A stretch of DNA of 64,000 nucleotides from Acinetobacter phage vB_AbaS_TCUP2199: the sequence record ON323491.1. One strand, 5' to 3'. Below the pieces are notes generated by a model that made no database searches, was not told the origin of the DNA, and worked only from the letters and a program-made list of their open reading frames with translations. The translations under genes were made by a program, and so were the position numbers. Within the stretch, counting starts at the first letter, position 1. Each line of letters starts with the position of its first letter. Of this stretch, positions 3,275-39,366 are shown piece after piece.

Positions 3275-3286
3275 GAGGACTCCACC

Positions 3287-3742: not shown

Positions 3743-3753
3743 GGATACACGTC

Positions 3754-3975: not shown

Positions 3976-4256
3976 CAACCTTCACAATCACTTTTAACCC
4001 ATTCTACTTTGATATTATTCTTATATATATCATTTGGTTAGTTGCACCAATTGCTTTACGTTGGGATGTACATTTAAGTGACCCTAAGAAAGCTAAAGAA
4101 CCCCACTGGCAGTTTTTAACTATGGTGGTTGGTTTTGCTTTAATTGTTACCTTATTTGTTTTACGTATACTTGACGCGATATTCGCTCAACTAGCAATAT
4201 CACTTGATAAAGTATTAACCAAGTATGGAAAATATGTTTTTCCTACCAAAAAATAG
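3972..4256 (+). CDS. small membrane protein (94 aa, 2-3 TM)
   Basis: Hydrophobic segments ILIYIIWLVAPIAL and VVGFALIVTLFVL. Confidence 0.45.
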   Translation: MTTFTITFNPFYFDIILIYIIWLVAPIALRWDVHLSDPKKAKEPHWQFLTMVVGFALIVTLFVLRILDAIFAQLAISLDKVLTKYGKYVFPTKK

Positions 4257-4264
4257 GTGGTCAG

Positions 4265-4738
4265 GTGAGTATAGAAAAACTTGAAACACTATTTGCAATT
4301 GAGTTCGGGCAACTACTTGAAAACTATCTGTATTCTAACGCACGACGTGAAGAATTGACGGACGTAATCTGTAGCTGCCTGCAGTTGCGAAACAAACAGC
4401 AATTGGCCCAGATATATGCTGGGTATGATATACCTTCAACCGCTAACATATTTGAATTGATCAGAACATTGAATGACGACGAGTTCACCATGCGCTTTTT
4501 CAAGCTGCAGACTACGTTGCCAGAAGTGGCTGTATCAAGACCAGAGGAAGTGGTTGAGCAAGCACCTGTCGTTGAGGTAAGTACGGAGCGTAAACCGTAC
4601 TGGATGATCGACGATGAAGAAAAGCCTGCAGACTATCCAAAGCAAGACGAAAATGACTTGCGAAAAAATGACGACATGTTCGATGAACTTGGAGACATGG
4701 ATATGGATATGATGAAGGGGATTGATTTTAACCTTTAA
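4265..4738 (+). CDS. hypothetical protein with strongly acidic C-terminus (157 aa)
   Basis: GTG start after AGGTGG; C-terminus DDEEKPADYPKQDENDL...DMDMDMM. Confidence 0.45.
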   Translation: MSIEKLETLFAIEFGQLLENYLYSNARREELTDVICSCLQLRNKQQLAQIYAGYDIPSTANIFELIRTLNDDEFTMRFFKLQTTLPEVAVSRPEEVVEQAPVVEVSTERKPYWMIDDEEKPADYPKQDENDLRKNDDMFDELGDMDMDMMKGIDFNL

Positions 4739-4755
4739 AAATTAGGAAATTAACG

Positions 4756-6333: not shown

Positions 6334-6345
6334 TGAAAATTACTG

Positions 6346-6375
6346 TTGACTCTAACCAGATTTTGCAATTATAGT
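6346..6375 (+). promoter_or_regulatory. sigma70-like promoter candidate (TTGACT-18-TATAGT)
   Basis: -35 TTGACT 6346-6351; -10 TATAGT 6370-6375. Confidence 0.35.
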
Positions 6376-6380
6376 AAGTC

Positions 6381-6422
6381 ATCACCGCAGTTTACACCTC
6401 GTTTTCTGCGGTGATATTTTTA
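6381..6422 (+). terminator. promoter-proximal hairpin plus T-run (attenuator/terminator-like)
   Basis: atcaccgcag...tgcggtgat stem followed by atttttat. Confidence 0.4.
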
Positions 6423-6467
6423 TGTTTCAAAATCACTTTCAAAATCAAAGTCACAGGAAATTTTATC

Positions 6468-7253
6468 ATGACAGCATTAAATGAAGCACTAAACGCAGCA
6501 GCAAACGAAGCGGCAGCAGATTCAACTGCAACAGCTCAACCTATCTCTCAGGTAGATCAAGGCTCAGTAGTTGGAAATGGTGAAGCTACTACACCTGCAG
6601 TAGCGAATCGCCAAGTAGCAGCAGCGCCTGCGGCTGGTGGTCCTTCACTGTCTATGGACAGCAGCGTTGTCCAATCACAAAGCAGCATCACAGAATTTTT
6701 AAAATTAAGTGATGGTGGCTGTATGGTTGGTGAAGCAAAGTTCGACCCAATCAAAGTTCGTATTCGTCTTGAAGATGCCAGCAATGGTGGTGGTTTTAAA
6801 CCAGCTTACATGATGAACTACGAAGGTCCACAAGGCATGGTTTACACTAAATCTTATGATGGTGTAAATACGTCAAGTAATAACCCAGCTCACGCTGGAT
6901 TATCATGGGCTGATAACAAAGCACGTATTCTTAACCTTGCACCAAAAGCGTATGATTTCTTAGGATATGATATTGCGTTTGTTGTAGCGGAAGATACTTT
7001 GTCTAAAGACAAGAAAACTGAACTAAAAGCTGGTACAGTTCTTGGCTTTACGACTCCATACACTGCAGCAAAAATGTTGAAGAAAGTATGGGACTCAGGT
7101 GTTGGTGCAAACCAACGTGGTAATGATGCAATTCTTATGATTTCTGGTGAAGAAATTTCTAAGAATGGTCGTCAGTACAAGCAATTAGTTGTTGAGCATG
7201 TCGGTTACGCAGCTCCAACTACTGTGGCTGAACCTGAACATGAAGGTGAGTAA
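6468..7253 (+). CDS. hypothetical protein, Ala/Gln-rich N-terminus (possible ssDNA-binding or recombination-associated)
   Basis: ATG 6468 with AGGAAA RBS; sits between helicase and FEN; start 6411 overlaps the hairpin and is rejected. Confidence 0.45.
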   Translation: MTALNEALNAAANEAAADSTATAQPISQVDQGSVVGNGEATTPAVANRQVAAAPAAGGPSLSMDSSVVQSQSSITEFLKLSDGGCMVGEAKFDPIKVRIRLEDASNGGGFKPAYMMNYEGPQGMVYTKSYDGVNTSSNNPAHAGLSWADNKARILNLAPKAYDFLGYDIAFVVAEDTLSKDKKTELKAGTVLGFTTPYTAAKMLKKVWDSGVGANQRGNDAILMISGEEISKNGRQYKQLVVEHVGYAAPTTVAEPEHEGE

Positions 7254-7307: not shown

Positions 7308-7484
7308 ATGTTAGTCCTTCCAGATTTAAAGCCAGAAACCTTAGTTGCCTTGGCGATTTTTGTTCTCATGTTTTGTATAGCTTGTTGGTACGAAGAACAC
7401 ATGGAGAAAAAGAACAAGAAAATAGCAGAGGAATCTAAGAAAAAATTTAACAAAAACAAAGGGGTAGATGAATGCAACGAATAA
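7308..7484 (+). CDS. small membrane protein (about 58 aa)
   Basis: ATG after GGAG; TM segment LVALAIFVLMFCIACW. Confidence 0.35.
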   Translation: MLVLPDLKPETLVALAIFVLMFCIACWYEEHMEKKNKKIAEESKKKFNKNKGVDECNE

Positions 7485-8290
7485 ATATTATTGATGGAAA
7501 TAACCAGTTTTTCATCAATATGAGTCGCGCACTAAATGCTCAAGACCTTGCCCGTCGCTGCTTTGAATTACACCATGGTTATGACATTGTGTATTGGACC
7601 TTTGACGGAATTGATTCACGCAAACCACGTCGTGATTTGTACGCTGGCTATAAAGATACTGTAGCCCGTCAAAAAGCCAAACATGATACCAACCGTTATG
7701 AATTATTAAAGAATTTTAAACACCAACACTTACCAGCACATGGTGGTGTCATAGTTATTGAAGTTCCCTTTTTTGAAGCCGATGACGTTATCCGTAAGCT
7801 GGTCAATCATCACGCGAATGGTGACAACCTGATAACCATTTCATCAAACGATGCCGATTTACTTGACTTGACACGGTTTAAGGGTGTGACACAGCCACAA
7901 GCTAAGTTCCCTGCAGTCTGTCAGGACCCAGTTTACTTGCCAATATACAAAACACTGGTTGGTGATACTGGTGACAATATCAAGGGCCTAAAAGGTTTTG
8001 GTGATGGTGCATGGTCCAAATTATCAGATGGTGACATGCGTTTGATTGCTTCATGTCTATGGAATAAGATACGCATTGACCAAGATAGCGTGATGGATGA
8101 TGAAAAGCTCAAAGCTAAGTTAATAGAGCATTGGGATTCTGTTGCGTTATGGTATAAGCTAGTTGACTATATTGACGTTCCAGACGATGCTATTCAAGCT
8201 AACTTGAGAATACATCCACGGAAAACTCCAAAAAACCCTGTGGCATTTGTCGATACCAAACGGCCAAGCATTTCAATGGATACGCTATGA
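7472..8290 (+). CDS. 5'-3' exonuclease / flap endonuclease (PolI N-terminal-like)
   Basis: H3TH-like motif GDTGDNIKGLKGFG; acidic clusters EADDV, SNDAD. Confidence 0.7.
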   Translation: MQRINIIDGNNQFFINMSRALNAQDLARRCFELHHGYDIVYWTFDGIDSRKPRRDLYAGYKDTVARQKAKHDTNRYELLKNFKHQHLPAHGGVIVIEVPFFEADDVIRKLVNHHANGDNLITISSNDADLLDLTRFKGVTQPQAKFPAVCQDPVYLPIYKTLVGDTGDNIKGLKGFGDGAWSKLSDGDMRLIASCLWNKIRIDQDSVMDDEKLKAKLIEHWDSVALWYKLVDYIDVPDDAIQANLRIHPRKTPKNPVAFVDTKRPSISMDTL

Positions 8291-8826
8291 GTACATATAC
8301 TGCAAATCGTAATAACCCTGATGTGATGAACATTTCAGGTAAACCAGCCATTCAAGCAGCAAGTGCTGAGGGCAAATCAATCCTGTTAGCAATCCTTGCG
8401 TTTGCTAAAGAGGACTCAGACAAAGGTACTTACTTACGTTATGTACCAGAGAGCAAAGCGTGGACCGATTCTAAAGGTCATGTTGTTCTATTTAATATCG
8501 CTGACTCAGAAACCACTTCTGCAGAAGCTATCCAATTGGTTAAGCAGTTCTCAACCAAGACTGGATATGAACCCCCTGTTAAGACTCAGGTTTCAGAAGG
8601 TGGCACTTTAGCTACCGACAATGGTGAGCCTATCGCAATCAGCACCCGTGCTATTGAAGAAAGCTCAAGTGACGAAAATGACGAAACAAATAAAAATGCA
8701 GAAGTCATTGGCGTTGACCATGAAAGCAAAAAAGTAGAACAAGAACCAGTAGTAGAAAAAGAAACGGTAGCTAAGCGCACTGCCAAGGCTGTAAAACCAG
8801 CTACAGATTCAACTACTGAATCGTAG
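8287..8826 (+). CDS. hypothetical protein with acidic C-terminal tail (179 aa)
   Basis: ATGA overlap with upstream gene; followed by a strong terminator. Confidence 0.5.
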   Translation: MSTYTANRNNPDVMNISGKPAIQAASAEGKSILLAILAFAKEDSDKGTYLRYVPESKAWTDSKGHVVLFNIADSETTSAEAIQLVKQFSTKTGYEPPVKTQVSEGGTLATDNGEPIAISTRAIEESSSDENDETNKNAEVIGVDHESKKVEQEPVVEKETVAKRTAKAVKPATDSTTES

Positions 8827-8857: not shown

Positions 8858-8888
8858 AAACTCTCGTCAACTGACGAGAGTTTTTTAT
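8858..8888 (+). terminator. rho-independent terminator
   Basis: ctctcgtca-act-gacgagag followed by ttttttatt; abuts the ATG at 8890. Confidence 0.65.
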
Positions 8889-8889
8889 T

Positions 8890-10989
8890 ATGGCTAATGT
8901 TATTGACCTTTTTACCAGAAAGATTAAAGACCTTCTGGTGGGTTCAGACCTTGGTGCTAACCCACATGTTTTTAAAGATGTAAAGATTCCAGTAGGTAAC
9001 TTACCTTCCAACTATCGTGACATTGAAGCTCTTACATTAGAACAAATTTCAGAGCTGGCATTAGGTATGAACCCTAACGGTGGTAACTATTCAGAGGAAC
9101 CACCGATTGTTTATGAAAATCTGGTGGAACGTTTCCCTGCAGACTGCTGGACCGTAGATGGTGTCCGTAGTATGTCTTTCTGCGTGGTTGGTGAAAAGGA
9201 CGATGGATTCGACGTTCACTGGACTTCACGTCGTAAAAATGACTTTGCTGCCGTCATCTGGTTCAGCGAAGATTTAAACATGCACCCATACTTATCGTAT
9301 GAAACTAAACCAGATTACCGCAACTGTACCCTTTCTTTCTCTATTGATTTAGAAGGTCAAGTACCCCCTATTTCAGATGAGCAACTGGGCTTAGTAATGA
9401 CTGTTATCACCATTAACAGCTACGGCCAACAAGTGCCGTATTACTTACGCCTTGCCAATTTTGCAGACCCTGCAACTCTCACAGACACACATGCAGATGT
9501 AACCATTGACTGGAACACTGCCCGTTCTGGTTTCTATGCCACAGACAATTTCCCTAAAACAAATATCCAGCGTATCTTCATTGGCTGCTTAACCAATGGC
9601 TTTGACATTGACAGTACACAGCCGTTGCCTAAAGAGGAAACAGCATCTATGAAGATAACGAACATGCGCTGTACTGGTACAGAGAGCAAGTTCATTCGTA
9701 GAACCATGGCTGTGCCACAGCACACGATTGGCATGTGTACCAGTTATGATGATAGCTATAACGTAAACCCTTACCGTATCATCAAGAACTGCTTCATGCT
9801 GGGCTATCGTGGACACATAAACCATTACTGTGGTATGTCTCATTACTACAACCAGAAATGGAGTGAGTCACAGCTCCGCTTTGTCGTGACTAAAGTAGAG
9901 GACCGACCAGAGTACAGTTTAATCAATAAAGAAACCACGTTGTGGCATAAGTACATGGCAAAAGCCTGCAAGAAAATGTATATGCTGCCAATTTTTTCTG
10001 TCTCTTATGAAATGTTTTCGGAAGCTGCAGAATTAACTTGGACTCAACGTGACTGGAACGATAACTATGGCCGTACAGGTTATGAGCCACCAAGTTATTT
10101 ATTAAGCCCATGTATCCCAGAAGCCATGAACTGGTTACAGCAAGTATTTGTTGAGTTTGCAGCTATTTCTGCGGGTGAAGGGTTAGTACCGCACCTGCAG
10201 GTAGGTGAACCATGGTGGTGGATTAACAGCGACGGTAAACCTTGTATTTATGATTACCCTACACGGGTTAAGTTTAATGCTGAGACAGGATTATTTGCGC
10301 CAGAAATCCCTAACCGTATGGACACACACTTACTTGAACAATCACCTTACAAAGAATTTGCTGCATTCTTGCGTAAGGAATTGGGTAACTCAGTTGTGGC
10401 CGTGCGTACAGCAGTGAAACAGGTTTATCCAGAAGCATTGGTTACAACACTATTTTTCTTACCTTCCATTCTGGATGAAGAAACCAGTGGTATTGCATCA
10501 ACTATTAACTATCCAGTTGAGCAGTACAAGTACCCGAACCTTGACTTTATCCAAACTGAAACCTATGACTGGTTGATCATTGGTAAGTTTAATAAAGCCT
10601 TGCGCGGGTTCACGTCGGCCATTGATGAGTTAGGATACCCACCAGATTTGGTCCATTACTTGCTTGGCTTTGTCCCAGATGATTTCTTGGGCAAGCTCAT
10701 TATCCCTAACTATGACTTGAAAAAGGACGGGGTAAAAGTGTGGCAAGCAATCATGGGTAATGCTTACCTTGGTAAAGAATATAACGTTGCTAAGCAATAT
10801 ATTTGGGCCTACAACCAAGTTATGCGTGATGGTTTAGTCATTCAGCCAGAGCTGTTCTTGCGTAAGTTCTGGATATTGAATAGCCTGTATTTAAGTCAGG
10901 TCCGTGAAGGTGAAGTATTGGGTACACCAATTGATAACCTACCTTGGAACCCTGTGCGACCACCACAGCCAGAAACTCCAAACGTATAA
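8890..10989 (+). CDS. large structural/enzymatic protein with shared N-terminal module (699 aa), paralog A
   Basis: N-terminal motif DVKIPVGNLPSNYRDIEALTLEQI...NPNGG shared with ORFs at 12001 and 13110; Trp/Tyr/Cys-rich globular C-terminus. Confidence 0.55.
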   Translation: MANVIDLFTRKIKDLLVGSDLGANPHVFKDVKIPVGNLPSNYRDIEALTLEQISELALGMNPNGGNYSEEPPIVYENLVERFPADCWTVDGVRSMSFCVVGEKDDGFDVHWTSRRKNDFAAVIWFSEDLNMHPYLSYETKPDYRNCTLSFSIDLEGQVPPISDEQLGLVMTVITINSYGQQVPYYLRLANFADPATLTDTHADVTIDWNTARSGFYATDNFPKTNIQRIFIGCLTNGFDIDSTQPLPKEETASMKITNMRCTGTESKFIRRTMAVPQHTIGMCTSYDDSYNVNPYRIIKNCFMLGYRGHINHYCGMSHYYNQKWSESQLRFVVTKVEDRPEYSLINKETTLWHKYMAKACKKMYMLPIFSVSYEMFSEAAELTWTQRDWNDNYGRTGYEPPSYLLSPCIPEAMNWLQQVFVEFAAISAGEGLVPHLQVGEPWWWINSDGKPCIYDYPTRVKFNAETGLFAPEIPNRMDTHLLEQSPYKEFAAFLRKELGNSVVAVRTAVKQVYPEALVTTLFFLPSILDEETSGIASTINYPVEQYKYPNLDFIQTETYDWLIIGKFNKALRGFTSAIDELGYPPDLVHYLLGFVPDDFLGKLIIPNYDLKKDGVKVWQAIMGNAYLGKEYNVAKQYIWAYNQVMRDGLVIQPELFLRKFWILNSLYLSQVREGEVLGTPIDNLPWNPVRPPQPETPNV

Positions 10990-10998
10990 GAGAAAGCT

Positions 10999-11997
10999 AT
11001 GCCTGAATATACCTTAACACCAATCCCAGATATGGTCTTATATGTGGATGGAGTCCCAGCGATAGTCCCAGCCAGTAATATCGGGGCTGCAGTCTTAAAT
11101 GACTTTTACACTTACTTATTGGACCCCAGCACTGGCAATAGTGTTGGGGTAACGCTACGCTATGTTCATCCAAGTTCATCGTGGATTTTACCGAATGGTG
11201 AGCCAGCGTTGTTTAATTTGGGAATGTCAGATGAAAACTTCTTTGAGATTATTACCCAGTTAAAAACATATTCTAAAGCCAACTACCTTGTAAAACCTTT
11301 GGGTTCTTTGTGGGGCTACCTTGCAACGGATGCAGGTAATTTTTTAGAGTTAAAACCAGATGAACTTATTGAAATTAAACCGCAAGAGTTCGTGAAAGCT
11401 GGCAAAGAAGTTTACTATATTTCTAACCTAGACAATGGCTTAACCCTTAACACAGCCATGGCACAGCTTGGTGTTTTTTCTTTGCCTGAGAAAAAGAATC
11501 CGCTTCAAGATTATGCTTGGGGTGGGTATGTGTTAAATGAAACACCACAGGATGGTAAACACTCTTTGTGGAAAGTAACGTACAAGACTGATACCAGCGA
11601 GTTTTTTATTAAACGAGCCGATCAAGTTGAACAGACTAACCCATTGTATGAAACTGATGTAACCGCAGTTGGCCTAGCAATGGACCCACAGAACAGACCA
11701 CAGATTGTTTATACCATTGCTGGTGTATCAAACATTTACTGGTATGATTTCAACCTTGGTCGTTACAACCACATGGAATTACCTGACGCGGTGAATCCGT
11801 GTATTTCAGACCTGAACCCAAACTCAGGCACTGAAATTATTTTAGGCTACCAAGTGGATAATAGTTTGATGTATCGAAAATATTCAGAAGGCTATCAGAC
11901 TGAACACACCTTGGTTAGCAACCTAGCTAATGGTTTAAAGTTACATCAAATTGGTTATGCTGATAATGAAAAATTTCAATGGTTATTAAAGGGGTAA
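10999..11997 (+). CDS. hypothetical protein (332 aa)
   Basis: Sits between the paralogs; lacks the shared motif. Confidence 0.5.
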   Translation: MPEYTLTPIPDMVLYVDGVPAIVPASNIGAAVLNDFYTYLLDPSTGNSVGVTLRYVHPSSSWILPNGEPALFNLGMSDENFFEIITQLKTYSKANYLVKPLGSLWGYLATDAGNFLELKPDELIEIKPQEFVKAGKEVYYISNLDNGLTLNTAMAQLGVFSLPEKKNPLQDYAWGGYVLNETPQDGKHSLWKVTYKTDTSEFFIKRADQVEQTNPLYETDVTAVGLAMDPQNRPQIVYTIAGVSNIYWYDFNLGRYNHMELPDAVNPCISDLNPNSGTEIILGYQVDNSLMYRKYSEGYQTEHTLVSNLANGLKLHQIGYADNEKFQWLLKG

Positions 11998-12000
11998 GTT

Positions 12001-13092
12001 GTGGATAACATTGAAGAATCTGTAATAAAAGCAAGGACTTACGCCTTTTTTATGTTGGCTTTATCTGTGGATAAAAAAAACCCAGACTGGGCTGATGTGA
12101 AGATACCTGCAGGTAATTTTCCAAAAGGTTTTGAACACTGTGAAGCCCTAACATTGGGCCAAATCGTTGCCATTTTGCAAATTACTGTCAAGAAAAAATT
12201 GCAAGATATTGTAGATGAATTAAACGGTGGTGGTACAGTTAATCCGCATCCTCCAATTGAGTGTGCAAATGGTGCTTCATGGTTTGAATTTCATACTGAC
12301 TTAGGTTCACAAATAGAATGGTTAGTGTCAGCTAATGGTGGGCCATGGTTAAGTATTGTTGATCATCCAGCGGTGGAATATTGGTATAACCCACAAAATT
12401 TTGGGGCCACCATGGTCATTGTTTTAAGGGAAGGATTACCACCAACTCCAATTCAACTTAAAGCAAGTTCACCTGTAGCCTTTTATGTTAATCCATCGGC
12501 TAACGTAAACGACACTGAACAGGAAAACCAATCGTATGTCTTGTATAACAGTCAAGACGTAATAGTTGACCCAACTTTAGAAATTAATAAAGTTTATAAC
12601 TCACCATACATCAATGATACCAGTACCGAGTTAGATTATTGCGTGATGTTCAATGCTGTAGACTTCTGCTTAAAATACCCAGAAGGGCCGCCAGTTGGGT
12701 GTGCAGGGGCGATTGACACCTTTAAAGCTATCTACATGACTGCTGGTGGTTTATATAATTTCTATGTTAATGACGTGGAATTTACAGGGACTAACTGGAT
12801 GTTCAGGGATGACATATTTAAAGATCATCTTGCTACTTTTGGTGTCATTTTAAACGCTTACGATCTGGACGGTAACCCAGTACCTAAAGGGGAAAACGGT
12901 AGATATGATGGCGCGTATATGGGAGAGTTAATTAACACATCCAATAATTACGTGAGAATAAAGATTTTTTGTGGGGACGCAAGTGCCATTGATAATTTTC
13001 AAAACCCTATCAACCCTGCAGCAAATTGGGATGCTGAAAACAATACTTTAACAGTATGTTTGGCCCCTCAAGGCACCACCCTAACAACCTAA
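12001..13092 (+). CDS. protein with shared N-terminal module (363 aa), paralog C
   Basis: GTG start; motif DVKIPAGNFPKGFEHCEALTLGQI...LNGGG. Confidence 0.5.
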   Translation: MDNIEESVIKARTYAFFMLALSVDKKNPDWADVKIPAGNFPKGFEHCEALTLGQIVAILQITVKKKLQDIVDELNGGGTVNPHPPIECANGASWFEFHTDLGSQIEWLVSANGGPWLSIVDHPAVEYWYNPQNFGATMVIVLREGLPPTPIQLKASSPVAFYVNPSANVNDTEQENQSYVLYNSQDVIVDPTLEINKVYNSPYINDTSTELDYCVMFNAVDFCLKYPEGPPVGCAGAIDTFKAIYMTAGGLYNFYVNDVEFTGTNWMFRDDIFKDHLATFGVILNAYDLDGNPVPKGENGRYDGAYMGELINTSNNYVRIKIFCGDASAIDNFQNPINPAANWDAENNTLTVCLAPQGTTLTT

Positions 13093-13109
13093 GAATAGTT
13101 GAGAACGCC

Positions 13110-13982
13110 ATGACAGTTAGCAAACTTATGACACGACGGATGGCTGACCTAATCACCCCGTCAAATTTAGGTGAAAACCTATTAAAATTTAATCAGGTAA
13201 TTTTACCTTGTGGGCGTATGCCTGCAGGTTATGAATTTGTAGAGGGTCTAACTATCAGCCAGCTTGGTGATATTATTATTGAGCAACTAGACGTAGCTGG
13301 TCTTATTCCAGACCTCAGTGGCGGTGGCAATAACCCAAGCGAAGGTGTACCAACAGACTCGCTTACTATGAATTTCACATTCAATAATAGTGCTACTATC
13401 CCATTAAATGATGTTGAAATTTTAATGTTTGATGGTTCTGACACCATGCGGGTTAATGACACCTTCGATCTGGACCATAACCCGACACAGCCTAACTACT
13501 TTATGGCTATTGTTACTGGTCCAAAATGGGTGTTTTATAACTTCCATCCGAGTAATGCCCCAATTAAAATTGCCATTCGTCTGATTCCTGAGAATCAAAA
13601 TTCGTTACAGAATATTCAATTGGTCGGAAACACTACTTTTAAATGGTTGGATGAGAACAAAGCTTATGTTGGAACATTACTCCCATTCCCTAAACCACAG
13701 CTTTCAGATGTAACTTATGACCCATCATCTGGTTCAACTGTACTTATTGAAGGTACTGCTTTGAACCTAAAAGATGGTGCAGAATATGGGGCATACGTCA
13801 CATTTCATAGGACGGATATTGACCAAACTGTCGTATTACCATCGGCTGACACTATTACTTCTGTCAATAAAAACTTTACTATTGAAGGAGATATACCAGT
13901 TGATATGGGTCCATATTATGTGTCTTTACATCTTAAAGATGCCACAGGTTGGCGTGACACCGTGCAGGCTGAACTTATTTAA
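13110..13982 (+). CDS. protein with shared N-terminal module (about 291 aa), paralog D
   Basis: ATG 13110; degenerate motif ILPCGRMPAGYEFVEGLTISQL...LSGGG. Confidence 0.5.
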   Translation: MTVSKLMTRRMADLITPSNLGENLLKFNQVILPCGRMPAGYEFVEGLTISQLGDIIIEQLDVAGLIPDLSGGGNNPSEGVPTDSLTMNFTFNNSATIPLNDVEILMFDGSDTMRVNDTFDLDHNPTQPNYFMAIVTGPKWVFYNFHPSNAPIKIAIRLIPENQNSLQNIQLVGNTTFKWLDENKAYVGTLLPFPKPQLSDVTYDPSSGSTVLIEGTALNLKDGAEYGAYVTFHRTDIDQTVVLPSADTITSVNKNFTIEGDIPVDMGPYYVSLHLKDATGWRDTVQAELI

Positions 13983-14066
13983 AGTAATGGGTCCATTTAG
14001 CAGAAAGTATTAAAAGTATACAAGGTAGTATGATATTATCAGCACATCAACTCAGGGTGTGCTGAA

Positions 14067-14489
14067 ATGTTTTTAAAATACATTGCAATCAGTTTTCTTT
14101 TGAGTGTCTTGAGCATGAATGTTCCAGCAATGGCTCAAACTAAAAACGACAGTCCAGCTACTACTTTCGTTCTCACGTATGGAAACGAATTTACCTTTGG
14201 GTTGTGTGTTTTAGTGTTAATCTTGTCCAGTTGGCTTAGTTTAAAGCTACCATCTGATGACACAGTTAAGCCAGAAATGTCCAATCAAGCCAAGATACTT
14301 TCAGCTTTAACTGGTGGAATCTTAGCGTTTATCTATTCGCTACACAAAGACCAAGGTTTAACCCTTATGAATCCTATTTGGATTGCTGTTGCTGCGATTG
14401 TACTCCCAGTTACAATTTTAACTTTACGCAGTAAATTTAAGAGATACACTGAAACTGTAGATTTCAGCAATCAACGAAAGGGTGACTAG
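14067..14489 (+). CDS. holin-like membrane protein (3 TM)
   Basis: Hydrophobic N-terminus plus 2 further TM segments; immediately upstream of endolysin. Confidence 0.5.
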   Translation: MFLKYIAISFLLSVLSMNVPAMAQTKNDSPATTFVLTYGNEFTFGLCVLVLILSSWLSLKLPSDDTVKPEMSNQAKILSALTGGILAFIYSLHKDQGLTLMNPIWIAVAAIVLPVTILTLRSKFKRYTETVDFSNQRKGD

Positions 14490-14787
14490 GATGCCAATTA
14501 ACCTTTACACCATGTTCTGGGCCGCTGTTGGCGTGTTAAGTCTCACTGGCCTGTTCATGTTTAACTCAAAACCTAGCATTTTCAATTTCATAACGAAGCG
14601 GGAATACTTGGTTGCTTTTCTTATCGCATCAATTTTAGGAATGCGAGAAACTTTCCCCCTTGCTTGTATTATTTCAGGGGTAACTCTTTTTGCCATGTTT
14701 CGTCAATACCCGCAATACTTAAAACATTGCTTCCTTGAGAAACAACGGCACAGTCAGGGGCACAATTACCGTCATAGAAATTTATAA
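14482..14787 (+). CDS. membrane protein (holin/antiholin or spanin candidate)
   Basis: 2-3 TM segments; overlaps the previous gene. Confidence 0.45.
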   Translation: MTRMPINLYTMFWAAVGVLSLTGLFMFNSKPSIFNFITKREYLVAFLIASILGMRETFPLACIISGVTLFAMFRQYPQYLKHCFLEKQRHSQGHNYRHRNL

Positions 14788-14808
14788 ATGTATACGTTAT
14801 GTTATAGT

Positions 14809-14838
14809 ACCCTCATCACTTGATGAGGGTTTTATTTT
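14809..14838 (+). terminator. rho-independent terminator
   Basis: accctcatca-ctt-gatgagggt followed by tttattttg. Confidence 0.6.
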
Positions 14839-14854
14839 GTCTAAACAAACACGA

Positions 14855-15568
14855 ATGCACTTTCAGGAGTTTCTGAAAGCTAAAGGTTTTTACACTGGCA
14901 ATATAGATGGCATTATCGGTTTAAGAACTAAAGCCGCCATTCTAAATTGTTTCCAGTGTAAAACTGCAACTACCATTACCGACGTTGAATTATTTCAATT
15001 TGCCAAATTACTTGGTGATACCAACACGGTTCGTATTCGTACCGTTGCCAAGGTAGAATCAAATGGCTCAGGCTGGTTCAATGATGGTCGCCCAAAAATT
15101 TTGTATGAGCGTCATAAGTTCTGGAAGTATAACGATGATGCAACTGCACCTAAGTCTACTTTCTTTAACTTCCCAGATGCTGGTAACTACACCATTGATG
15201 CAGACAAGAATGGTATCAATGATTCATACGACAAACTTTTAAAGGCTTGTGAGTATGACCCAATGGGGGCTTTCATGTCAGTCTCAATGGGTGCCTTCCA
15301 AGTTATGGGTTTCTATTTCAAGGAAATGGGCTATGCCACACCTTGGGAAATGCTCTATGACTGTGCCCGTTCCGAGAAAGCTCAGTACCAGTTGCTGGTC
15401 AATTACATCATAATGAATAAATTGCAAAAAGCTTTCTTGGCTATTTCTGGAAAACCAGACACTTGCCGTATGTTTGCGTCAGGATACAATGGTAAAAATT
15501 ACGCTAAGTATAATTACCATGGTAACTTGGCTTCTGCTTATTTATACTATTTGAACAAGGTCAGATAA
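14855..15568 (+). CDS. endolysin (PG-binding domain plus muramidase-like domain)
   Basis: N-terminal FQEFLKAKGFYTGNIDGIIGLRTKAAI (PG_binding_1-like); C-terminal domain resembling phage N-acetylmuramidases; start moved downstream of the terminator. Confidence 0.6.
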   Translation: MHFQEFLKAKGFYTGNIDGIIGLRTKAAILNCFQCKTATTITDVELFQFAKLLGDTNTVRIRTVAKVESNGSGWFNDGRPKILYERHKFWKYNDDATAPKSTFFNFPDAGNYTIDADKNGINDSYDKLLKACEYDPMGAFMSVSMGAFQVMGFYFKEMGYATPWEMLYDCARSEKAQYQLLVNYIIMNKLQKAFLAISGKPDTCRMFASGYNGKNYAKYNYHGNLASAYLYYLNKVR

Positions 15569-34892: not shown

Positions 34893-34927
34893 AAAGAAAA
34901 ATACCGCCACTTGGCGGTATTTTTTAT
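34893..34927. terminator. bidirectional terminator between convergent nrdB (+) and tail fibre (-)
   Basis: A-run, ataccgcca-ctt-ggcggtat, T-run. Confidence 0.65.
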
Positions 34928-35925
34928 GCTACGTATTCACTTGGATTATAGTTGCCAGCAATCTGGCTCACGACACGTTCAATCATTAGGCCACTGATAT
35001 GGAATTGGTTGCCAGCTTCACCGTCGCCATTTGGATAGAAACCAATAACAGCACCGCCAGTTGTATTTGCAATAAAGCTGATAGAGTAACGAGTCATTGT
35101 TTCAGATAAAACCAATGGGTGCGGGTTGGTTACAGCAAAGTTACCATCTGCTAGTCGGATGACACAACGCATTTTTTTACCTGCAGTTGCAGCCATGGCG
35201 TAGAAGCTGTAAATATATTGAACCCCAGCTACCAGTTGGATGTTCTCGTAAGTATCTGGTGTGTCATCAAAATAAATATAAGCGTCTGGGTTAGCAGCAT
35301 TGGTACACTCAATAGTCAACCGTTTTCCACGTACATGTTTTAATGTGGTTTCATCACTTACTGTGGCCGTAACATCTGCTTTGGACCAGCTTGCAACACC
35401 AGCAAAGCTTTTGATGTAATCATTTAAAAGGTTTATGCCTGCGCCTGCTTTACTGAGTAAGCCATACATTAAGCCACGGACCTGAGAAACAGCACCAATG
35501 GTTGCAGCTAGACCATGTTCAGTCTCAGATGCGTAAATGTCACCGCTTAAAGCAACAATACCAGTTACGCCTACGCCTGCAGCACGAATATCATTCATGG
35601 AAACGCCAGTGATTAAGCCTTGGGCATTCACTGTGATAGACGGAATTTTAATTGTGGACATGTAGGTCCCAGCAACAACCCCTGAGTTCTGCAGGGTTAA
35701 AATTGCTGATTTATTACCTGAACCATCAAAGCTGACAGAACCAGTTACTGAGCCAGAAAAAGAAAGGGTAATTTCTGTAGCCCATTTACTTGCTGACACA
35801 GCATTATCGGCAGCATTTAACTTACCTTCTTTTAAATCTTTAATGTCTTGACCAACTCTTACAGCGAGTTCGTTTACACCTACCGCTACCTGTTCGGCCG
35901 TTAGTGTTTCAATTGTGTCAGCCAT
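34924..35925 (-). CDS. side tail fibre protein (333 aa)
   Basis: Downstream of the J-like gene; Gly/Ser/Thr/Val-rich repeats. Confidence 0.55.
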   Translation of the reverse strand: MADTIETLTAEQVAVGVNELAVRVGQDIKDLKEGKLNAADNAVSASKWATEITLSFSGSVTGSVSFDGSGNKSAILTLQNSGVVAGTYMSTIKIPSITVNAQGLITGVSMNDIRAAGVGVTGIVALSGDIYASETEHGLAATIGAVSQVRGLMYGLLSKAGAGINLLNDYIKSFAGVASWSKADVTATVSDETTLKHVRGKRLTIECTNAANPDAYIYFDDTPDTYENIQLVAGVQYIYSFYAMAATAGKKMRCVIRLADGNFAVTNPHPLVLSETMTRYSISFIANTTGGAVIGFYPNGDGEAGNQFHISGLMIERVVSQIAGNYNPSEYVA

Positions 35926-35976
35926 AAATAGGACCCATAAAATACACCCATATCAATGGGTGTATTCTATCAGAGA

Positions 35977-38900
35977 TTAACTTGAGCTGCTGTTATAAAC
36001 AGCGGTAGGGTTAAAACCGTTGGTAGACACCGCTGGTACAATCACCTCAGCCCATTCAGAATCTAAAGCATTGTATTCCCAATCTGGTGGGTCACCAATT
36101 ACACCATTCTTATCTGAGACACGAATCTTGATCTTGGCACCAACAAAAGTTTCATCTGGGGCAAATAATATACCGCCCATACTGTTGTCAACTTCAAAGT
36201 ACAAATCAAAGATACCTGAATTGGCTGGTGTACTTGCTGCTTTAATTGGTAAGTCAAGGTAACCATAAATACGATAGTCACCATCGTTATGATCTGAAAT
36301 TACAGCAAAGAAAGGTGACCATGCATATTGCTCACGGAAATACTGCTCAAATATTGGATACTGACTATAATTTGGAATTTGCACAACTAAATGTACGAAT
36401 ACCATCCCTTCTGGTGCAGTACGAATATTCCAGCTTTGTTTAGCGCGAGTATATGACTCAATACCAAGGATTACTGGTTTAGGGTACTTAGCAACTGGTA
36501 AGCTGCCAGAATCATCCCCATAATAAGTCCAAGTGTCAGTTTTTTGAGTATCTACAAAACCACCGTTGGCAGCACTTGTAGCTTCATAGCGTAAACTCAT
36601 TTTGTATGTGCCAGCGCCAACATACGGAATATCGTAGTAAGTAGAATCAACTGGTACTGGTTGGTTGGCACTTGATCTATACGGAGCTGAATAGTTTACA
36701 TAAGCTTCGTTATAAATTAAACCAGTGTACGGTTGGAAGTTAGCCTGAGTAAATGCAAAACGGATACTCTTGGTCGGAGCATAATATTCAGCAGAAATAA
36801 ACTTAGGTAAACCATTTTCCTGAGCTTTACCAAGCTGAACATTATCCATGATTAATGGTTCACCTGCCTGCCCAGCTTTGTTGTATGGTGTAATCTTCAA
36901 CTTCAAACTGGTTGTCTCAGGGAAAGCTGGGGCCAACACACCTTCGGTATCAAACAATATGGTTTCACGCGCTTCACCAGTTTCCTTGTTTACCCAAGTA
37001 ATTTTGTACTTGTGTGCTGGGTCAATCGTATTAAACGTAATACCATAAGTTGGCTGACCTAAAGCGTTTGACAAATCACGAAGCCACAGGCGAACATCAA
37101 ACGGCATACTAGGGATACGGTCACGCTTATAGGTTAAGTCCAAACTGTTATATTTGAAATTAACCAAGCTTGGGTCATTAATATTGTCAATGGCTTGGTA
37201 CTTGATCGGGGCAACAATGGCACCTTTAAACAAGAACATTTCGCCTTGAGCAACGTCTGACGAATCCGTTTGTTCAATACTGAGGACACGGAAAATTTTA
37301 GGCTGACCGTACACGCCACCTGCTAAACCAATTGGTGCATTCTCAATACTGTTAAGGTATAAGTTTACATCATCCAATTTTTCAACTTCTGTCACCAGTA
37401 ACTGGTGCGGGTTGATACTTTTCACGAATGCAGTCATCACAGTATCCTGTGTATGGAAATACATTGTGTAAACTTCACTAGATGACATTTCAACCAAAGC
37501 ATCACGAAGGGTAACCAACTGGGTTGCTGGGTCGTAACTAGAAATACGAGTACCTAAACCCCAATCCATTTCTTTATCGAAGATATAGAAATTATCATAT
37601 AAATCAACAACATGACCCAAACGAGGTTGGGTGAATGTGATGAAAGTGGTTTCCTCTTTATTGGTGTACATTAAGTAAACCGCCTGACGGATAGCTTCAC
37701 TTAAATTAGTTGCACCAACACATTGGAATGCGTAAGGAATAATACCATTGACCGCTTGGCTTTCTTCATCTAAAAGAACACGACGGTCCTCTTGGTAATC
37801 GTTCGCAGCATTGGCAAAAATTACACGCATGAAGTTATACCGTGATGAAAGGTCAGAACGGTAATAGCTTAAACCAGTTTGGAATACTGTTTCTGAACTG
37901 ACAAAGAAACGAGGGGTCTTTGGTTTATCAATAAAGAAGCGATAAACACCAAACATCTCCCGACTGGTCGCATGGAATGAACCAAGGACATATTTTAAGT
38001 ATTCATCAATGTCGCGTTCAGCGGTAATAGCTTCATTAAAAGTGTGACGAGGTTTCATTTCACCGTTAAGGTCAGGTACTTTCTCATCACAATACTTGAT
38101 AGCTTCCATCAAGCTGGTGTTGTCTACACGTAGCTGCGGCTCACTAGCTCGTTTACCCCAATCGCGGTTCATGATGATCTCACGCGCAATTAGAGCATTA
38201 TTGTCGGTCCAACCTTTCTTGAATCGACCATCCCAGATGCCTGCCCAAGTTTTGGTGATCGGATTATAGTTGACAGGAATGTCACACATTAAACCCATAA
38301 TCTCAGCAGTAAAGTCTGGCACATCGTCAAAACGGTCAGTATGCTGGGCCACAACATGGCAGATAGCGGTTTTTGGATAAGCTTTTTCTGTGTCAGTAAT
38401 GATAGTCACACTATCTAAACTGATTGTTTTAGATGAGAATTTCTTTTCATCAGAAGTCAATTCCTTACTACGACGAACAATTTGAACTTCCCAATCATGG
38501 TTAGCATCTGAGTCATCAAAAATAGGAATGTTTAATTCGTAAATGTAACCTGCCGTAGTCTTACCAGTTACCACAATCATTTCATTTTGAATTTGAGAAG
38601 TAGTAGTACCCGTTGGTAATTGGCTTAAATACTTTTCATATAAATCAACAGAATAAGCACGACGAATTAAACGACCATAGCCGCCATTCTGATACTGAAT
38701 TTCTGTTTCTGCAGGTGTATCTAAGTTACCTAAGTCAGCAGACACAATGTTTTTGAGTTCTTTTAAAGTGTTTAACTCAAAATCATATTGCTGAGCAGGG
38801 GTCATGGCATCAAAATCAAGACCTCTATCTTTAGCAGCTTGACGAAGGGTAGCAACCTTACGCTTATATTGAATTAAAGTCTCTGTGGTTTCATTCACAT

Positions 38901-39366
38901 AACGCCAATTAGTGTCACCAACACGACGATATTTCACCTGAAAAATTACAGATGATTCATAACTGTTCTGACCATCACCAGCGGTTAATTGGTTAATGAT
39001 GATACGAACATCTAAGCTTTTGATAGCGCCACGGTATTGGGCTGGTGTAACGATTGTTCGCGCAACATCTGCAGGTAAAGATAAACCTAAACTACCAGCA
39101 ATAATTGAAGATTCACCGCCCGAAAAATAACGGATAGGTTGATCATCCATATACCCTTGACGAATATTTACAGCTACGTCTTGGAAATTATACTCCCCAG
39201 TCTCAGCTACCAAAGGCAAATTATTGATGTAGAAAGATTTTAAACCATCTTTTAATCCAAAAATGGTTCCTTCACACATACCAAATGCCAGCTCTACAAT
39301 ATCTTGGCTATATAAGTTATCGGCCGCAATCGTAGGGCTAGGCGGTTGTTTTTTCTTACCACCCAT
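35977..39366 (-). CDS. host-specificity / central tail fibre protein, lambda J-like (1129 aa)
   Basis: Size (lambda J is 1132 aa) and position after the I-like gene. Confidence 0.7.
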   Translation of the reverse strand: MGGKKKQPPSPTIAADNLYSQDIVELAFGMCEGTIFGLKDGLKSFYINNLPLVAETGEYNFQDVAVNIRQGYMDDQPIRYFSGGESSIIAGSLGLSLPADVARTIVTPAQYRGAIKSLDVRIIINQLTAGDGQNSYESSVIFQVKYRRVGDTNWRYVNETTETLIQYKRKVATLRQAAKDRGLDFDAMTPAQQYDFELNTLKELKNIVSADLGNLDTPAETEIQYQNGGYGRLIRRAYSVDLYEKYLSQLPTGTTTSQIQNEMIVVTGKTTAGYIYELNIPIFDDSDANHDWEVQIVRRSKELTSDEKKFSSKTISLDSVTIITDTEKAYPKTAICHVVAQHTDRFDDVPDFTAEIMGLMCDIPVNYNPITKTWAGIWDGRFKKGWTDNNALIAREIIMNRDWGKRASEPQLRVDNTSLMEAIKYCDEKVPDLNGEMKPRHTFNEAITAERDIDEYLKYVLGSFHATSREMFGVYRFFIDKPKTPRFFVSSETVFQTGLSYYRSDLSSRYNFMRVIFANAANDYQEDRRVLLDEESQAVNGIIPYAFQCVGATNLSEAIRQAVYLMYTNKEETTFITFTQPRLGHVVDLYDNFYIFDKEMDWGLGTRISSYDPATQLVTLRDALVEMSSSEVYTMYFHTQDTVMTAFVKSINPHQLLVTEVEKLDDVNLYLNSIENAPIGLAGGVYGQPKIFRVLSIEQTDSSDVAQGEMFLFKGAIVAPIKYQAIDNINDPSLVNFKYNSLDLTYKRDRIPSMPFDVRLWLRDLSNALGQPTYGITFNTIDPAHKYKITWVNKETGEARETILFDTEGVLAPAFPETTSLKLKITPYNKAGQAGEPLIMDNVQLGKAQENGLPKFISAEYYAPTKSIRFAFTQANFQPYTGLIYNEAYVNYSAPYRSSANQPVPVDSTYYDIPYVGAGTYKMSLRYEATSAANGGFVDTQKTDTWTYYGDDSGSLPVAKYPKPVILGIESYTRAKQSWNIRTAPEGMVFVHLVVQIPNYSQYPIFEQYFREQYAWSPFFAVISDHNDGDYRIYGYLDLPIKAASTPANSGIFDLYFEVDNSMGGILFAPDETFVGAKIKIRVSDKNGVIGDPPDWEYNALDSEWAEVIVPAVSTNGFNPTAVYNSSSS

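What the first reader, a model, noticed from the sequence alone, without database searches (positions are those of the whole stretch)
8890..13982. Three paralogous proteins share a conserved N-terminal module ahead of divergent domains
The ORFs at 8890 (699 aa), 12001 (363 aa) and 13110 (291 aa) share a 45-aa N-terminal block: [D/N]VKIPxGNxPxx[Y/F]xxxEALTLxQI followed by a (N/S)GGG motif. Their C-terminal domains are unrelated and aromatic/Cys-rich. A shared anchor with varied payloads suggests modular virion-attached proteins (multiple receptor-binding proteins or depolymerases docking on one adaptor) or a family of packaged/ejected effectors. They sit between the early genes and the lysis cassette, far from the J-like gene and side fibre at 34.9-39.4 kb, so they are extra to a complete lambda-like adsorption apparatus. 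The 332-aa ORF between them lacks the module and may be a chaperone.
Basis: partly seen in the sequence, partly recalled or inferred. Interest (0 to 1): 0.7.

Follow-up and report, generated by a model that had tools for sequence, protein, structure and literature searches.

The report
Shared anchor on phage receptor-binding proteins

Summary
ORFs 8890-10989, 12001-13092 and 13110-13982 share only an N-terminal block of about 60-75 aa (pairwise BLASTP E 8e-6 to 2e-9). No fourth copy exists in the window.

The window is an Acinetobacter siphophage, 99% identical to fJoAci01 and of the same group as EAb13, Mystique, TCUP2199 and StAb3. The module matches nothing in Pfam, PHROGs, NCBIfam or PDB sequences. 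An exhaustive profile search found 46 hits, nearly all at residue 1 of proteins with varied tail-fibre-like C-termini. Six of these hits were traced to contigs of uncultured relatives, and all lie in the same genomic slot.

ORF1's payload matches N4 gp64/gp65 and phi92 gp142, which carries a Calx-beta domain where ORF1 has the module. This is a lineage-specific anchor on a swappable receptor-binding payload, which is a known principle with a new anchor family.

The "chaperone" reading of the 332-aa ORF is not supported. Its C-half matches a phiKMV gp41-type virion fibre protein, and its N-half is a second shared module, paralogous to the upstream 179-aa ORF.

New hypothesis: ORF1 binds PGR, the ManNAc-type glycan receptor of this genus. 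Virion attachment and the docking partner remain unproven.

The parts
8287..8826 (+). ORF0, 179 aa. It has an N-terminal domain of about 120 aa followed by an acidic/basic low-complexity tail. The domain is a paralogue of the N-half of ORF2 (the 'second shared module'). The gene overlaps the stop codon of the 5'-3' exonuclease gene.
   Evidence: BLASTP of ORF2 residues 10-113 against ORF0 residues 11-113 gives 36% identity, E 3e-9. phmmer gives 2e-7 to 3e-8. An ORF0-like gene follows the exonuclease gene in every relative examined. It has no hit above threshold in Pfam, PHROGs or NCBIfam.
8858..8883 (+). Conserved 11-bp hairpin followed by a U-run. It ends 6 nt before the ORF1 ATG and looks like an intrinsic terminator separating ORF0 from the cassette.
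   Evidence: Found by the terminator scan. The same element sits at the same syntenic position in EAb13 and in 4 metagenomic relatives. 90.8% of cells are paired, against 31-57% when the partners are slid. Three pairs change on both sides (n=6).
8890..10989 (+). ORF1, 699 aa. It has an A-type N-module (aa 1-65, nt 8890-9084), an NCTSP_N domain (aa 79-266, nt 9124-9687) and an NCTSP TIM barrel (aa 276-648, nt 9715-10833).
   Evidence: Pfam PF23844 at 1e-31 and PF23845 at 5e-89. PDB N4 gp64 (9lc0_M) at 1e-39 and gp65 at 5e-13. phi92 gp142 residues 112-664 at 34% identity, E 1e-107. 325 phage records hold the payload.
10999..11997 (+). ORF2, 332 aa, without the N-module. It has an ORF0-like N-domain (aa ~1-150) and a C-domain of the phiKMV gp41 type (aa 158-332, nt 11470-11994).
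   Evidence: phrog_4950 'tail fiber protein' at 9e-26. PT5 gp41 by BLASTP at 2e-5. Stand-alone 196-aa homologues occur in L005 and L009, and these match PT5 gp41 at about 1e-14. Against EAb13 the N-domain is 76-93% identical but the C-domain only 33-56%.
12001..13092 (+). ORF3, 363 aa, with a GTG start. It has a B-type N-module (aa 1-78, nt 12001-12234), domain A (aa ~85-228) and domain B (aa 229-358, nt 12685-13074).
   Evidence: BLASTP and HMM matches of the module. The EAb13 homologue P0004 has the module, a Gly linker, domain B and a different C-terminal domain, and it lacks domain A. AF2 gives pLDDT 75-88 for the module, 65-89 for domain B and below 50 for domain A. No significant fold match was found.
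13110..13982 (+). ORF4, 290 aa. It has a C-type N-module (aa 1-73, nt 13110-13328), a low-confidence linker region and beta-sandwich domain(s).
14039..14065 (+). Conserved hairpin directly upstream of the first lysis-cassette gene. It marks the downstream edge of the cassette.
   Evidence: It is conserved in EAb13, L005 and L006, and is degenerate in L009.
14067..15568 (+). Lysis cassette that bounds the slot. It comprises two small membrane-protein genes (14067-14489 and 14482-14787) and an N-acetylmuramidase endolysin gene (14735-15568).
   Evidence: phrog_20669 and phrog_1224, and Pfam Muramidase at 1e-37. The genes are syntenic in all relatives.
34924..39366 (-). The separate canonical tail-tip adsorption genes. 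These are a J-like central fibre (35977-39366, 1129 aa) and a 333-aa fibre protein (34924-35925). They are candidate docking sites, but this was not tested.
   Evidence: phrog_31 'central tail fiber J' at 1e-78, and several tail-fibre PHROGs for the 333-aa ORF.

Best explanation
Nt 8890-13982 is an accessory receptor-binding (tail fibre) cassette of an Acinetobacter siphophage.

**Proposed architecture.** ORF1, ORF3 and ORF4 each start with a module of about 60 aa that is specific to this phage lineage. AF2 predicts it as helix, two short strands, then a helix, followed by a Gly-rich linker. I infer that it fastens the protein to a conserved site on the tail, and that the domains behind it are exchangeable host-recognition payloads.

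**The three subtypes.** The modules belong to three subfamilies, and each has counterparts in related uncultured phages:
- A (ORF1-like) carries long fibre or spike payloads.
- B (ORF3-like) and C (ORF4-like) carry short payloads or none.

**ORF1.** It is this module fused to the NCTSP_N + TIM-barrel unit found in N4 gp64/gp65 and in the lateral tail fibre of phi92 and Vequintavirinae. I infer that it recognises, and perhaps processes, PGR. PGR is the WecB-dependent, ManNAc-type exopolysaccharide shown genetically to be the receptor of the sister phage StAb3.

**ORF2.** It is a structural fibre component with a phiKMV gp41-like C-domain. It probably works together with the B- and C-type proteins.

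**Shown versus inferred.**
- Shown: the sequence relationships, the synteny, the mosaicism and the domain swap.
- Inferred: virion attachment, the docking function of the module, and the PGR ligand.
For: 1. **The module is real and forms a family.** Pairwise E-values run from 8e-6 to 2e-9. A profile search of 1.84 billion proteins gave 46 hits with E<1e-3. Apart from three repeat proteins, all start at residue 1 of proteins 67-1007 aa long with unrelated C-termini.
2. **Payloads are typical of receptor-binding proteins.** They include NCTSP/TIM barrel, SASA esterase, CotH and DUF285, tail fibre/spike/minor-tail PHROGs and FN3/Ig-like sandwiches.
3. **There is an exact N-terminal domain swap.** phi92 gp142 is Calx-beta + NCTSP_N + TIM barrel. 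ORF1 is the N-module + NCTSP_N + TIM barrel.
4. **The slot is conserved.** In five distinct uncultured relatives (seven loci) the order is helicase, exonuclease, ORF0-like gene, hairpin, cassette, two membrane proteins, muramidase, DNA polymerase. The cassette holds 1-3 module genes with different payloads.
5. **Close relatives are mosaic.** Against EAb13, the modules and ORF1/ORF4 are conserved. The ORF2 C-domain and the ORF3 payload are replaced or shuffled.
6. **ORF2's C-domain has virion-associated homologues.** It matches phiKMV gp41-type proteins, whose Ar-KM counterparts were found in virions by MS (10.64898/2026.05.18.726046).
7. **The receptor link is consistent.**
   - StAb3-group phages need the PGR locus, in which PgrC resembles NfrB and PgrF resembles WecB. 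The authors liken that locus to the N4 receptor locus but name no phage protein (PMC12507263).
   - N4 and Vequintavirinae, which carry the same TIM-barrel protein, depend on wecB (PMC8594841).
   - gp65 is the N4 receptor-binding protein (PMC13434306).
Against: - No virion proteomics or tail-tip structure exists for this phage group. The TCUP2199 paper shows only an SDS gel, and the Mystique cryo-EM covers only the capsid and tail tube.
- The cassette lies outside the structural gene block, between replication and lysis genes. A terminator-like hairpin abuts the ORF1 start, so its timing of expression is unknown.
- The docking partner was not identified.
- The module has no solved or annotated relative, and the AF2 models are only of moderate confidence.
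- Stand-alone 'bare' modules of about 70 aa in relatives are not obviously explained by a simple anchor model.
- The ligand of the gp64-type TIM barrel has not been demonstrated biochemically in any phage. In N4, current models assign glycan binding to gp66 and NfrA binding to gp65.
- ORF3's payload has no recognisable fold.
Confidence: 0.68

Rival explanations
1. The N-module is an oligomerisation or assembly element rather than a tail anchor. It could be a trimerisation nucleus or a tag recognised by an assembly factor such as the ORF0-like domain. Attachment to the virion, if any, would be made by other parts or by ORF2.
For: - The module is small. AF2 predicts two short strands flanked by helices, the second of them long and amphipathic in ORF3 (H52-74).
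- In A-type homologues it runs straight into coiled-coil-like sequence.
- Bare modules exist as separate genes.
- An ORF0-like gene always accompanies the cassette.
Against: - In known systems a lineage-conserved N-terminus ahead of swapped payloads is usually the virion-attachment part (my own knowledge of T7 gp17, K1-5/SP6, CBA120 and G7C).
- phi92 gp142 has a different N-terminal domain at exactly this position.
- The two functions do not exclude each other.
Confidence: 0.15
2. The proteins are not virion components. They would be soluble glycan-acting or glycan-binding proteins made late and released at lysis, for example free depolymerase-like enzymes that clear exopolysaccharide for the progeny. 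The module would then serve another purpose.
For: - The cassette sits next to the lysis genes and away from the tail genes.
- ORF1 has an enzyme-like TIM barrel, which depositors annotate in relatives as a deacetylase or EPS depolymerase.
- There is no proteomic evidence of virion association.
Against: - The ORF1 payload homologues with structural or genomic evidence are tail-associated. N4 gp64/gp65 were solved in the virion (PMC13434306). phi92 gp142 is encoded next to the endosialidase tailspike gene. The Vequintavirinae homologue is described as a lateral tail fibre (PMC8594841).
- The Ar-KM counterparts of phiKMV gp39-41 were detected in virions by MS.
- Homologue payloads hit tail fibre and spike PHROGs.
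Confidence: 0.1
3. The proteins are packaged or ejected effector proteins.
For: None was found beyond the shared N-terminus, which could in principle be a packaging signal.
Against: - The payload families are external receptor-binding or fibre domains.
- There are no membrane-insertion, peptidoglycan-hydrolase or nucleic-acid-directed domains.
- The payloads vary between close relatives in the way host-range determinants do.
Confidence: 0.03

Closest known systems
Escherichia phage phi92 gp142 and the conserved lateral tail fibre protein of Vequintavirinae (rV5 gp34 type)
   Same: ORF1 residues 84-651 align with gp142 residues 112-664 at 34% identity, E 1e-107. Both have the same NCTSP_N + TIM-barrel pair. 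Both phage groups depend on a WecB-made glycan (PMC8594841; PMC12507263).
   Different: gp142 starts with a Calx-beta domain, whereas ORF1 starts with the new N-module. The phi92 group are myoviruses with a baseplate fibre cluster, whereas this phage is a siphovirus whose gene lies outside the tail cluster.
Coliphage N4 non-contractile sheath: gp64 (minor subunit) and gp65 (major subunit, receptor-binding protein). PDB 9LC0, 9YF4; Pfam PF23844/PF23845
   Same: The ORF1 TIM barrel matches gp64 at E 1e-39, and residues 226-321 match gp65. Both Pfam domains score far above their cut-offs. The host receptor pathways are analogous: NfrB/WecB/NfrA in E. coli and PgrC/PgrF/PgrG in Acinetobacter.
   Different: - N4 is a podovirus in which two proteins form a six-fold sheath and gp65 (1382 aa, 10 domains) also holds the tail plug.
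- ORF1 is a single 699-aa protein and lacks those further domains.
- A sheath role on a long flexible tail is unlikely.
Branched or anchor-plus-payload receptor-binding systems: T7 gp17 N-domain, K1-5/SP6 adaptor with tailspikes, CBA120 TSP1-4, G7C gp63.1/gp66, and Klebsiella phage depolymerase sets (from my own knowledge of the literature)
   Same: Several receptor-binding proteins in one genome share a conserved N-terminal part. The C-terminal enzymatic or binding domains are exchanged horizontally and differ between close relatives.
   Different: - The anchor here is a different, undescribed sequence family.
- It comes in three conserved subtypes.
- It is also encoded as bare genes of about 70 aa in relatives.
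- Its partner is unknown.
- No sequence or fold relationship to those anchors was found.
phiKMV-type tail fibre complex: phiKMV/PT5 gp38-gp41, equal to Ar-KM gp44-gp47
   Same: The ORF2 C-domain belongs to the gp41 family (phrog_4950). Relatives L005 and L009 also carry a gp40-like gene next to it. In Ar-KM these proteins form a flexible multi-protein fibre complex hung on an anchor fibre.
   Different: - No gp38/gp44-type anchor fibre was found in the window.
- In this phage the gp41-like domain is fused to an ORF0-like N-domain.
- Identity to PT5 gp41 is only about 20%.

Membership tests
Pfam NCTSP (N4 gp65/gp64-type 'non-contractile tail sheath protein'), for ORF1 | NCTSP_N domain (PF23844) above the gathering score | tested here: met
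   109.8 bits against a cut-off of 27, residues 79-266
Pfam NCTSP (N4 gp65/gp64-type 'non-contractile tail sheath protein'), for ORF1 | NCTSP TIM barrel (PF23845) above the gathering score | tested here: met
   299.1 bits against a cut-off of 27, residues 276-648. phmmer against N4 gp64 (9lc0_M) gives 1e-39.
Pfam NCTSP (N4 gp65/gp64-type 'non-contractile tail sheath protein'), for ORF1 | Forms a six-fold sheath around a short tail as a gp64:gp65 heterodimer and holds the tail plug through C-terminal domains D9-D10 | tested here: not met
   - ORF1 is 699 aa and its match to gp65 is limited to residues 226-321.
- It has no counterpart of the C-terminal 200 residues of gp65.
- No second NCTSP gene is present in the window.
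- The phage is a siphovirus with a long tail (tape measure of 2096 aa).
- ORF1 is therefore a member of the domain family, not a 'sheath'.
Pfam NCTSP (N4 gp65/gp64-type 'non-contractile tail sheath protein'), for ORF1 | Binds the host receptor (NfrA or the NGR glycan in N4) | not testable with these tools
   The evidence is only correlative. The StAb3-group receptor locus PGR is analogous to the N4 locus.
Modular anchor-plus-payload receptor-binding proteins of tailed phages | Two or more proteins in one genome share a conserved N-terminal part and have unrelated C-terminal parts | tested here: met
Modular anchor-plus-payload receptor-binding proteins of tailed phages | The N-terminal part is conserved across the lineage while payloads are exchanged, even between close relatives | tested here: met
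   The swap against phi92 gp142 is shown.
Modular anchor-plus-payload receptor-binding proteins of tailed phages | Payloads are carbohydrate-binding or carbohydrate-active domains, or fibre or spike domains | tested here: inconclusive
   This is met for ORF1 and for homologues. ORF4 gives only generic FN3/Ig-like sandwiches. ORF3 has no recognisable fold.
Modular anchor-plus-payload receptor-binding proteins of tailed phages | The N-terminal part physically attaches the protein to the virion or to an adaptor | not testable with these tools
phiKMV gp41-type tail fibre component (phrog_4950), for ORF2 | Profile match over the whole domain | tested here: met
   E 9e-26, with profile positions 22-189 of 192. 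BLASTP against PT5 gp41 gives 2e-5.
Tail fibre assembly chaperone (lambda Tfa, T4 gp38/gp57A, Mu U types), for ORF2 | Sequence match to a chaperone family | tested here: not met
   There is no chaperone family among the Pfam, PHROG, NCBIfam or PDB hits. The only annotated family is a fibre component.

The most novel reading that the evidence does not exclude
The module is a new kind of combinatorial docking system. The A, B and C subtypes, together with the ORF0-like domain, would assemble into a hetero-oligomeric hub on the tail. Each position in the hub must be filled, either by a payload-bearing chain or by a 'bare' module of about 70 aa acting as a placeholder. A phage could then gain, lose or swap receptor-binding domains without disturbing tail assembly. 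In this genus one position carries the PGR-binding TIM-barrel protein, which would explain the 85-91% host range.
Probability: 0.15. Interest if true: 0.75.

Novelty: new member of a known kind. Interest (0 to 1): 0.45.

Why it matters
**Therapeutic relevance.** The phages of this group (EAb13, Mystique, TCUP2199, StAb3, fJoAci01) are unusual among A. baumannii phages in infecting about 85-91% of clinical isolates. They are candidates for therapy.

**The gap this addresses.** Their receptor, the PGR glycan, was identified genetically in 2025. No paper in the searchable library names the phage protein that binds it.

**What this analysis offers.**
- It nominates ORF1 as the PGR binder, on the basis of a domain unit shared with N4 and with phi92 and Vequintavirinae. 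N4 and Vequintavirinae also depend on a WecB-made glycan.
- It defines the N-terminal module and the boundaries at which payloads are naturally exchanged. Those are the junctions one would use to engineer host range.
- It corrects misleading record annotations: 'non-contractile tail sheath protein' in a siphovirus, 'capsid protein', and the chaperone guess.

Tried and rejected
- **Chance similarity.** Rejected on the pairwise E-values, the six-frame HMM control and 46 database hits.
- **Fourth copy or a partner with the same module in the tail cluster.** None was found.
- **Known family for the module.** It has no hit in Pfam, PHROGs, NCBIfam or PDB by sequence, even with a 24-sequence profile. 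tblastn against 50,697 phage records finds it only in this Acinetobacter genus.
- **Folds of the payloads.**
  - The ORF4 model (pLDDT 62) gave only generic FN3/Ig-like matches.
- **Permissive Pfam scans of ORF0, ORF2, ORF3, ORF4 and P0004.** Nothing above noise.
- **Strict A+B+C heterotrimer.** This is not supported by gene counts. Relatives have A only, B+C, or B+C+C'.
- **Hits P0005, P0006 and P0041.** These are repeats in giant bacterial surface proteins that match only profile positions 36-81. I judged them a partial motif resemblance, not the same module.
- **Published virion proteomics for the group.** None was found.

Full report
**1. What the window is.** The region 8890-13982 is 99.0% identical to Acinetobacter phage fJoAci01, 95% to Mystique, and 87-88% over 65% of its length to EAb13 and fJoAci04. 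These are the broad-host-range siphoviruses also represented by TCUP2199 and StAb3 (PMC12507263; PMC12893723). Record annotations for the four genes vary. They read 'non-contractile tail sheath protein', 'tail fiber protein' and 'hypothetical' in fJoAci01 and EAb13. In Mystique the ORF1 homologue is split, and one piece is called 'putative capsid protein'.

**2. The observation.** ORFs 8890-10989 (699 aa, ORF1), 12001-13092 (363 aa, ORF3) and 13110-13982 (290 aa, ORF4) exist as described.
- BLASTP similarity is confined to the N-termini, at the same relative position, with E-values of 8e-6, 2e-9 and 1e-5.
- A profile of the three blocks finds only these three copies in the six-frame translation of the window. 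The next hit has E 0.23.
- The rest of the proteins are mutually unrelated.
- The block is about 60-75 aa rather than 45 aa.
- The 13110 start of ORF4 is supported by homologues.
- 'Aromatic/Cys-rich' applies to ORF1 and ORF3 but not to ORF4.

**3. The module is a family.** It has no match in Pfam, PHROGs or NCBIfam. A 24-sequence profile also found nothing among PDB sequences. Among 50,697 cultured-phage records it occurs only in this genus.
- An exhaustive profile search of 1.84 billion representative proteins gave 46 hits with E<1e-3. Apart from three repeat proteins, all begin at residue 1 of proteins 67-1007 aa long.
- Behind the module these proteins carry coiled-coil-like stretches and unrelated domains. 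These include a SASA carbohydrate esterase, CotH, DUF285 repeats and tail fibre, tail spike and minor-tail PHROGs.
- The modules fall into three subtypes that correspond to ORF1 (A), ORF3 (B) and ORF4 (C). A-type proteins are long. B- and C-type proteins are short, and 13 of 29 are 'bare' at under 100 aa.

**4. Same slot, different cargo.** Five hit proteins were looked up on their source contigs, giving seven loci, and a sixth lies beside one of them. All the loci lie on phage contigs of up to 77 kb with the gene order of this window. The order is helicase, 5'-3' exonuclease, an ORF0-like gene, the cassette, two small membrane proteins, muramidase, DNA polymerase.
- The cassette holds one A-type gene in L003 and L004.
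- It holds B plus C (plus C') genes in L005, L007 and L009, some of them bare modules of 71-72 aa.
- The window combines both designs.

**5. Mosaicism between close relatives.** Against EAb13, ORF0, ORF1 and ORF4 are 75-100% identical. The ORF2 N-half is 76-93% identical, but its C-half only 33-56%. The ORF3 module is 53-80% identical. EAb13 lacks ORF3's domain A, has domain B directly after a Gly linker, and adds a new C-terminal domain. This is the pattern expected of host-range determinants.

**6. ORF1.**
- Residues 79-266 and 276-648 are the Pfam NCTSP_N and NCTSP TIM-barrel domains, with E-values of 1e-31 and 5e-89.
- The TIM barrel matches N4 gp64 (PDB 9LC0 chain M, 1e-39), and residues 226-321 match gp65.
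- In N4, gp64 and gp65 form the sheath, and gp65 is the receptor-binding protein (PMC13434306).
- The whole payload is 33-36% identical to the conserved lateral tail fibre protein of Vequintavirinae, Phapecoctavirus and phi92. It is present in 325 phage records.
- ORF1 residues 84-651 align with phi92 gp142 residues 112-664, E 1e-107.
- gp142 is Calx-beta + NCTSP_N + TIM barrel, and ORF1 is N-module + NCTSP_N + TIM barrel. The same two-domain unit therefore carries a different N-terminal domain in each lineage. This is the strongest single argument that the module is the lineage-specific attachment part.
- ORF1 is a member of the domain family. It fails the 'sheath' definition because it lacks the further gp65 domains, has no second subunit, and belongs to a long-tailed phage.

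**7. Link to the receptor (inference).**
- StAb3 cannot adsorb to ΔpgrD cells, and escape mutants map to pgrD and to the wecB homologue pgrF.
- PgrC resembles NfrB. The authors note the likeness to the N4 receptor locus but name no phage protein (PMC12507263).
- An intact PGR locus also predicts susceptibility to EAb13 and Mystique.
- N4 and the Vequintavirinae share a wecB dependence and a gp64-type domain, which was predicted there to be a poly-GlcNAc deacetylase (PMC8594841).
- Three unrelated virion types therefore pair this TIM-barrel protein with a WecB-dependent glycan. I put the chance that ORF1 is the PGR-binding protein at about 0.5.
- No paper in the library states this.
- The caveat is that the ligand of this domain has not been shown biochemically in any phage.

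**8. ORF2 is not a chaperone candidate.**
- Its C-half (residues 165-331) is phrog_4950 'tail fiber protein' at 9e-26. It is related to gp41 of the phiKMV-like phage PT5.
- In the phiKMV-like phage Ar-KM, gp45-47 were detected in virions and are proposed to form a flexible fibre complex (preprint 10.64898/2026.05.18.726046). By gene order I equate these with phiKMV gp39-41.
- Relatives L005 and L009 also carry a gp40-like gene beside a stand-alone gp41-like gene.
- The ORF2 N-half (residues 10-113) is 36% identical (E 3e-9) to the upstream 179-aa ORF0 (8287-8826). ORF0-like genes occur in every relative (alignment).
Its role is unknown. It could be a hub or partner for the first module, but that is speculation.
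- In these loci, ORF2-type genes occur only in cassettes that also carry B- and C-type module genes, not in the A-only cassettes (L003, L004). This suggests that they form one multi-protein fibre.

**9. Structure predictions.**
- The module's fold is too small and generic for a fold assignment.

**10. Expression context.** A strong hairpin with a U-run at 8858-8883 ends 6 nt before the ORF1 ATG.
- It recurs at the same place in EAb13 and four uncultured relatives, with compensatory changes. 90.8% of cells are paired, against 31-57% in the slid controls, and three pairs change on both sides (n=6).
- It probably ends the exonuclease-ORF0 transcription unit.
- How ORF1-ORF4 are then transcribed and translated is unexplained.
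- A second conserved hairpin (14039-14065) precedes the lysis genes.

**11. Verdict.**
- The main interpretation, several virion-attached receptor-binding proteins on a common anchor and additional to the J-like tip, is the best-supported reading at about 0.68. It rests on homology, synteny and mosaicism, not on physical evidence.
- The effector and chaperone readings are not supported.
- The principle is well known from other phages. What is new is this anchor family with its three subtypes and bare forms, the second shared module, and the candidate PGR-binding protein.

Noticed in passing
window 8287-8826 and 10999-11448: There is a second shared N-terminal module. The 179-aa ORF directly after the exonuclease gene and the N-half of the 332-aa ORF2 are paralogues (36% identity, E 3e-9). 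ORF0-like genes are present in every related phage contig. The module has no family assignment, and in ORF0-type proteins it is followed by a charged low-complexity tail.
   Followed up: partly
window 8858-8883 (+); also L010 ~1469-1494, L004 ~9969-9995, L007 ~8030-8055, L009 ~7326-7351: A conserved 11-bp hairpin with a U-run abuts the start codon of the first cassette gene, and its stem shows compensatory changes. It looks like an intrinsic terminator placed 3-6 nt before an ATG, leaving no room for a normal ribosome-binding site.
   Followed up: partly
window 14039-14065 (+): A second conserved hairpin (CAGCACATC...GGTGTGCTG) lies immediately upstream of the first lysis-cassette gene. It is shared with EAb13, L005 and L006, and it has no U-run.
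   Followed up: no
L005 3067-3282; L007 10910-11125; L006 1475-1690; L009 9781-9999; proteins P0007, P0008, P0010, P0012, P0013, P0015, P0018, P0019, P0036, P0038: Related uncultured phages encode free-standing 'bare' modules of about 70 aa, of B or C type, with no payload. They are placed as the last or first gene of the cassette. No explanation has been tested.
   Followed up: partly
window 13056-13109; L002 (Mystique) 3001-5101 and 6113-7015: There are annotation discrepancies in public records.
- fJoAci01 starts ORF4 at the upstream ATG (13056), which overlaps ORF3.
- The Mystique record splits the ORF1 homologue into two CDSs, one of them called 'putative capsid protein'.
- The Mystique record also ends the ORF3 homologue early (301 codons).
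- Either sequencing frameshifts or real mutations could explain the Mystique differences.
   Followed up: no
proteins P0005, P0006, P0041: Giant bacterial surface proteins with up to 11 tandem repeats match only positions 36-81 of the module profile (LTLxQLKxIxG... motif). This is probably a motif-level resemblance and not homology of the whole module.
   Followed up: no
one search hits H39 (Acinetobacter phage Loki LOKI_17) and 21 Campylobacter phage records: The NCTSP TIM-barrel payload also occurs in the unrelated 41-kb Acinetobacter siphophage Loki and in Campylobacter and Pseudomonas syringae phages. Whether those phages also use WecB-dependent glycans was not checked.
   Followed up: no
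L009 7358-9765 and L005 3-1236: Uncultured relatives carry a run resembling phiKMV gp40 and gp41 as separate genes. In the window only the gp41-like domain remains, and it is fused to the ORF0-like domain.
   Followed up: partly
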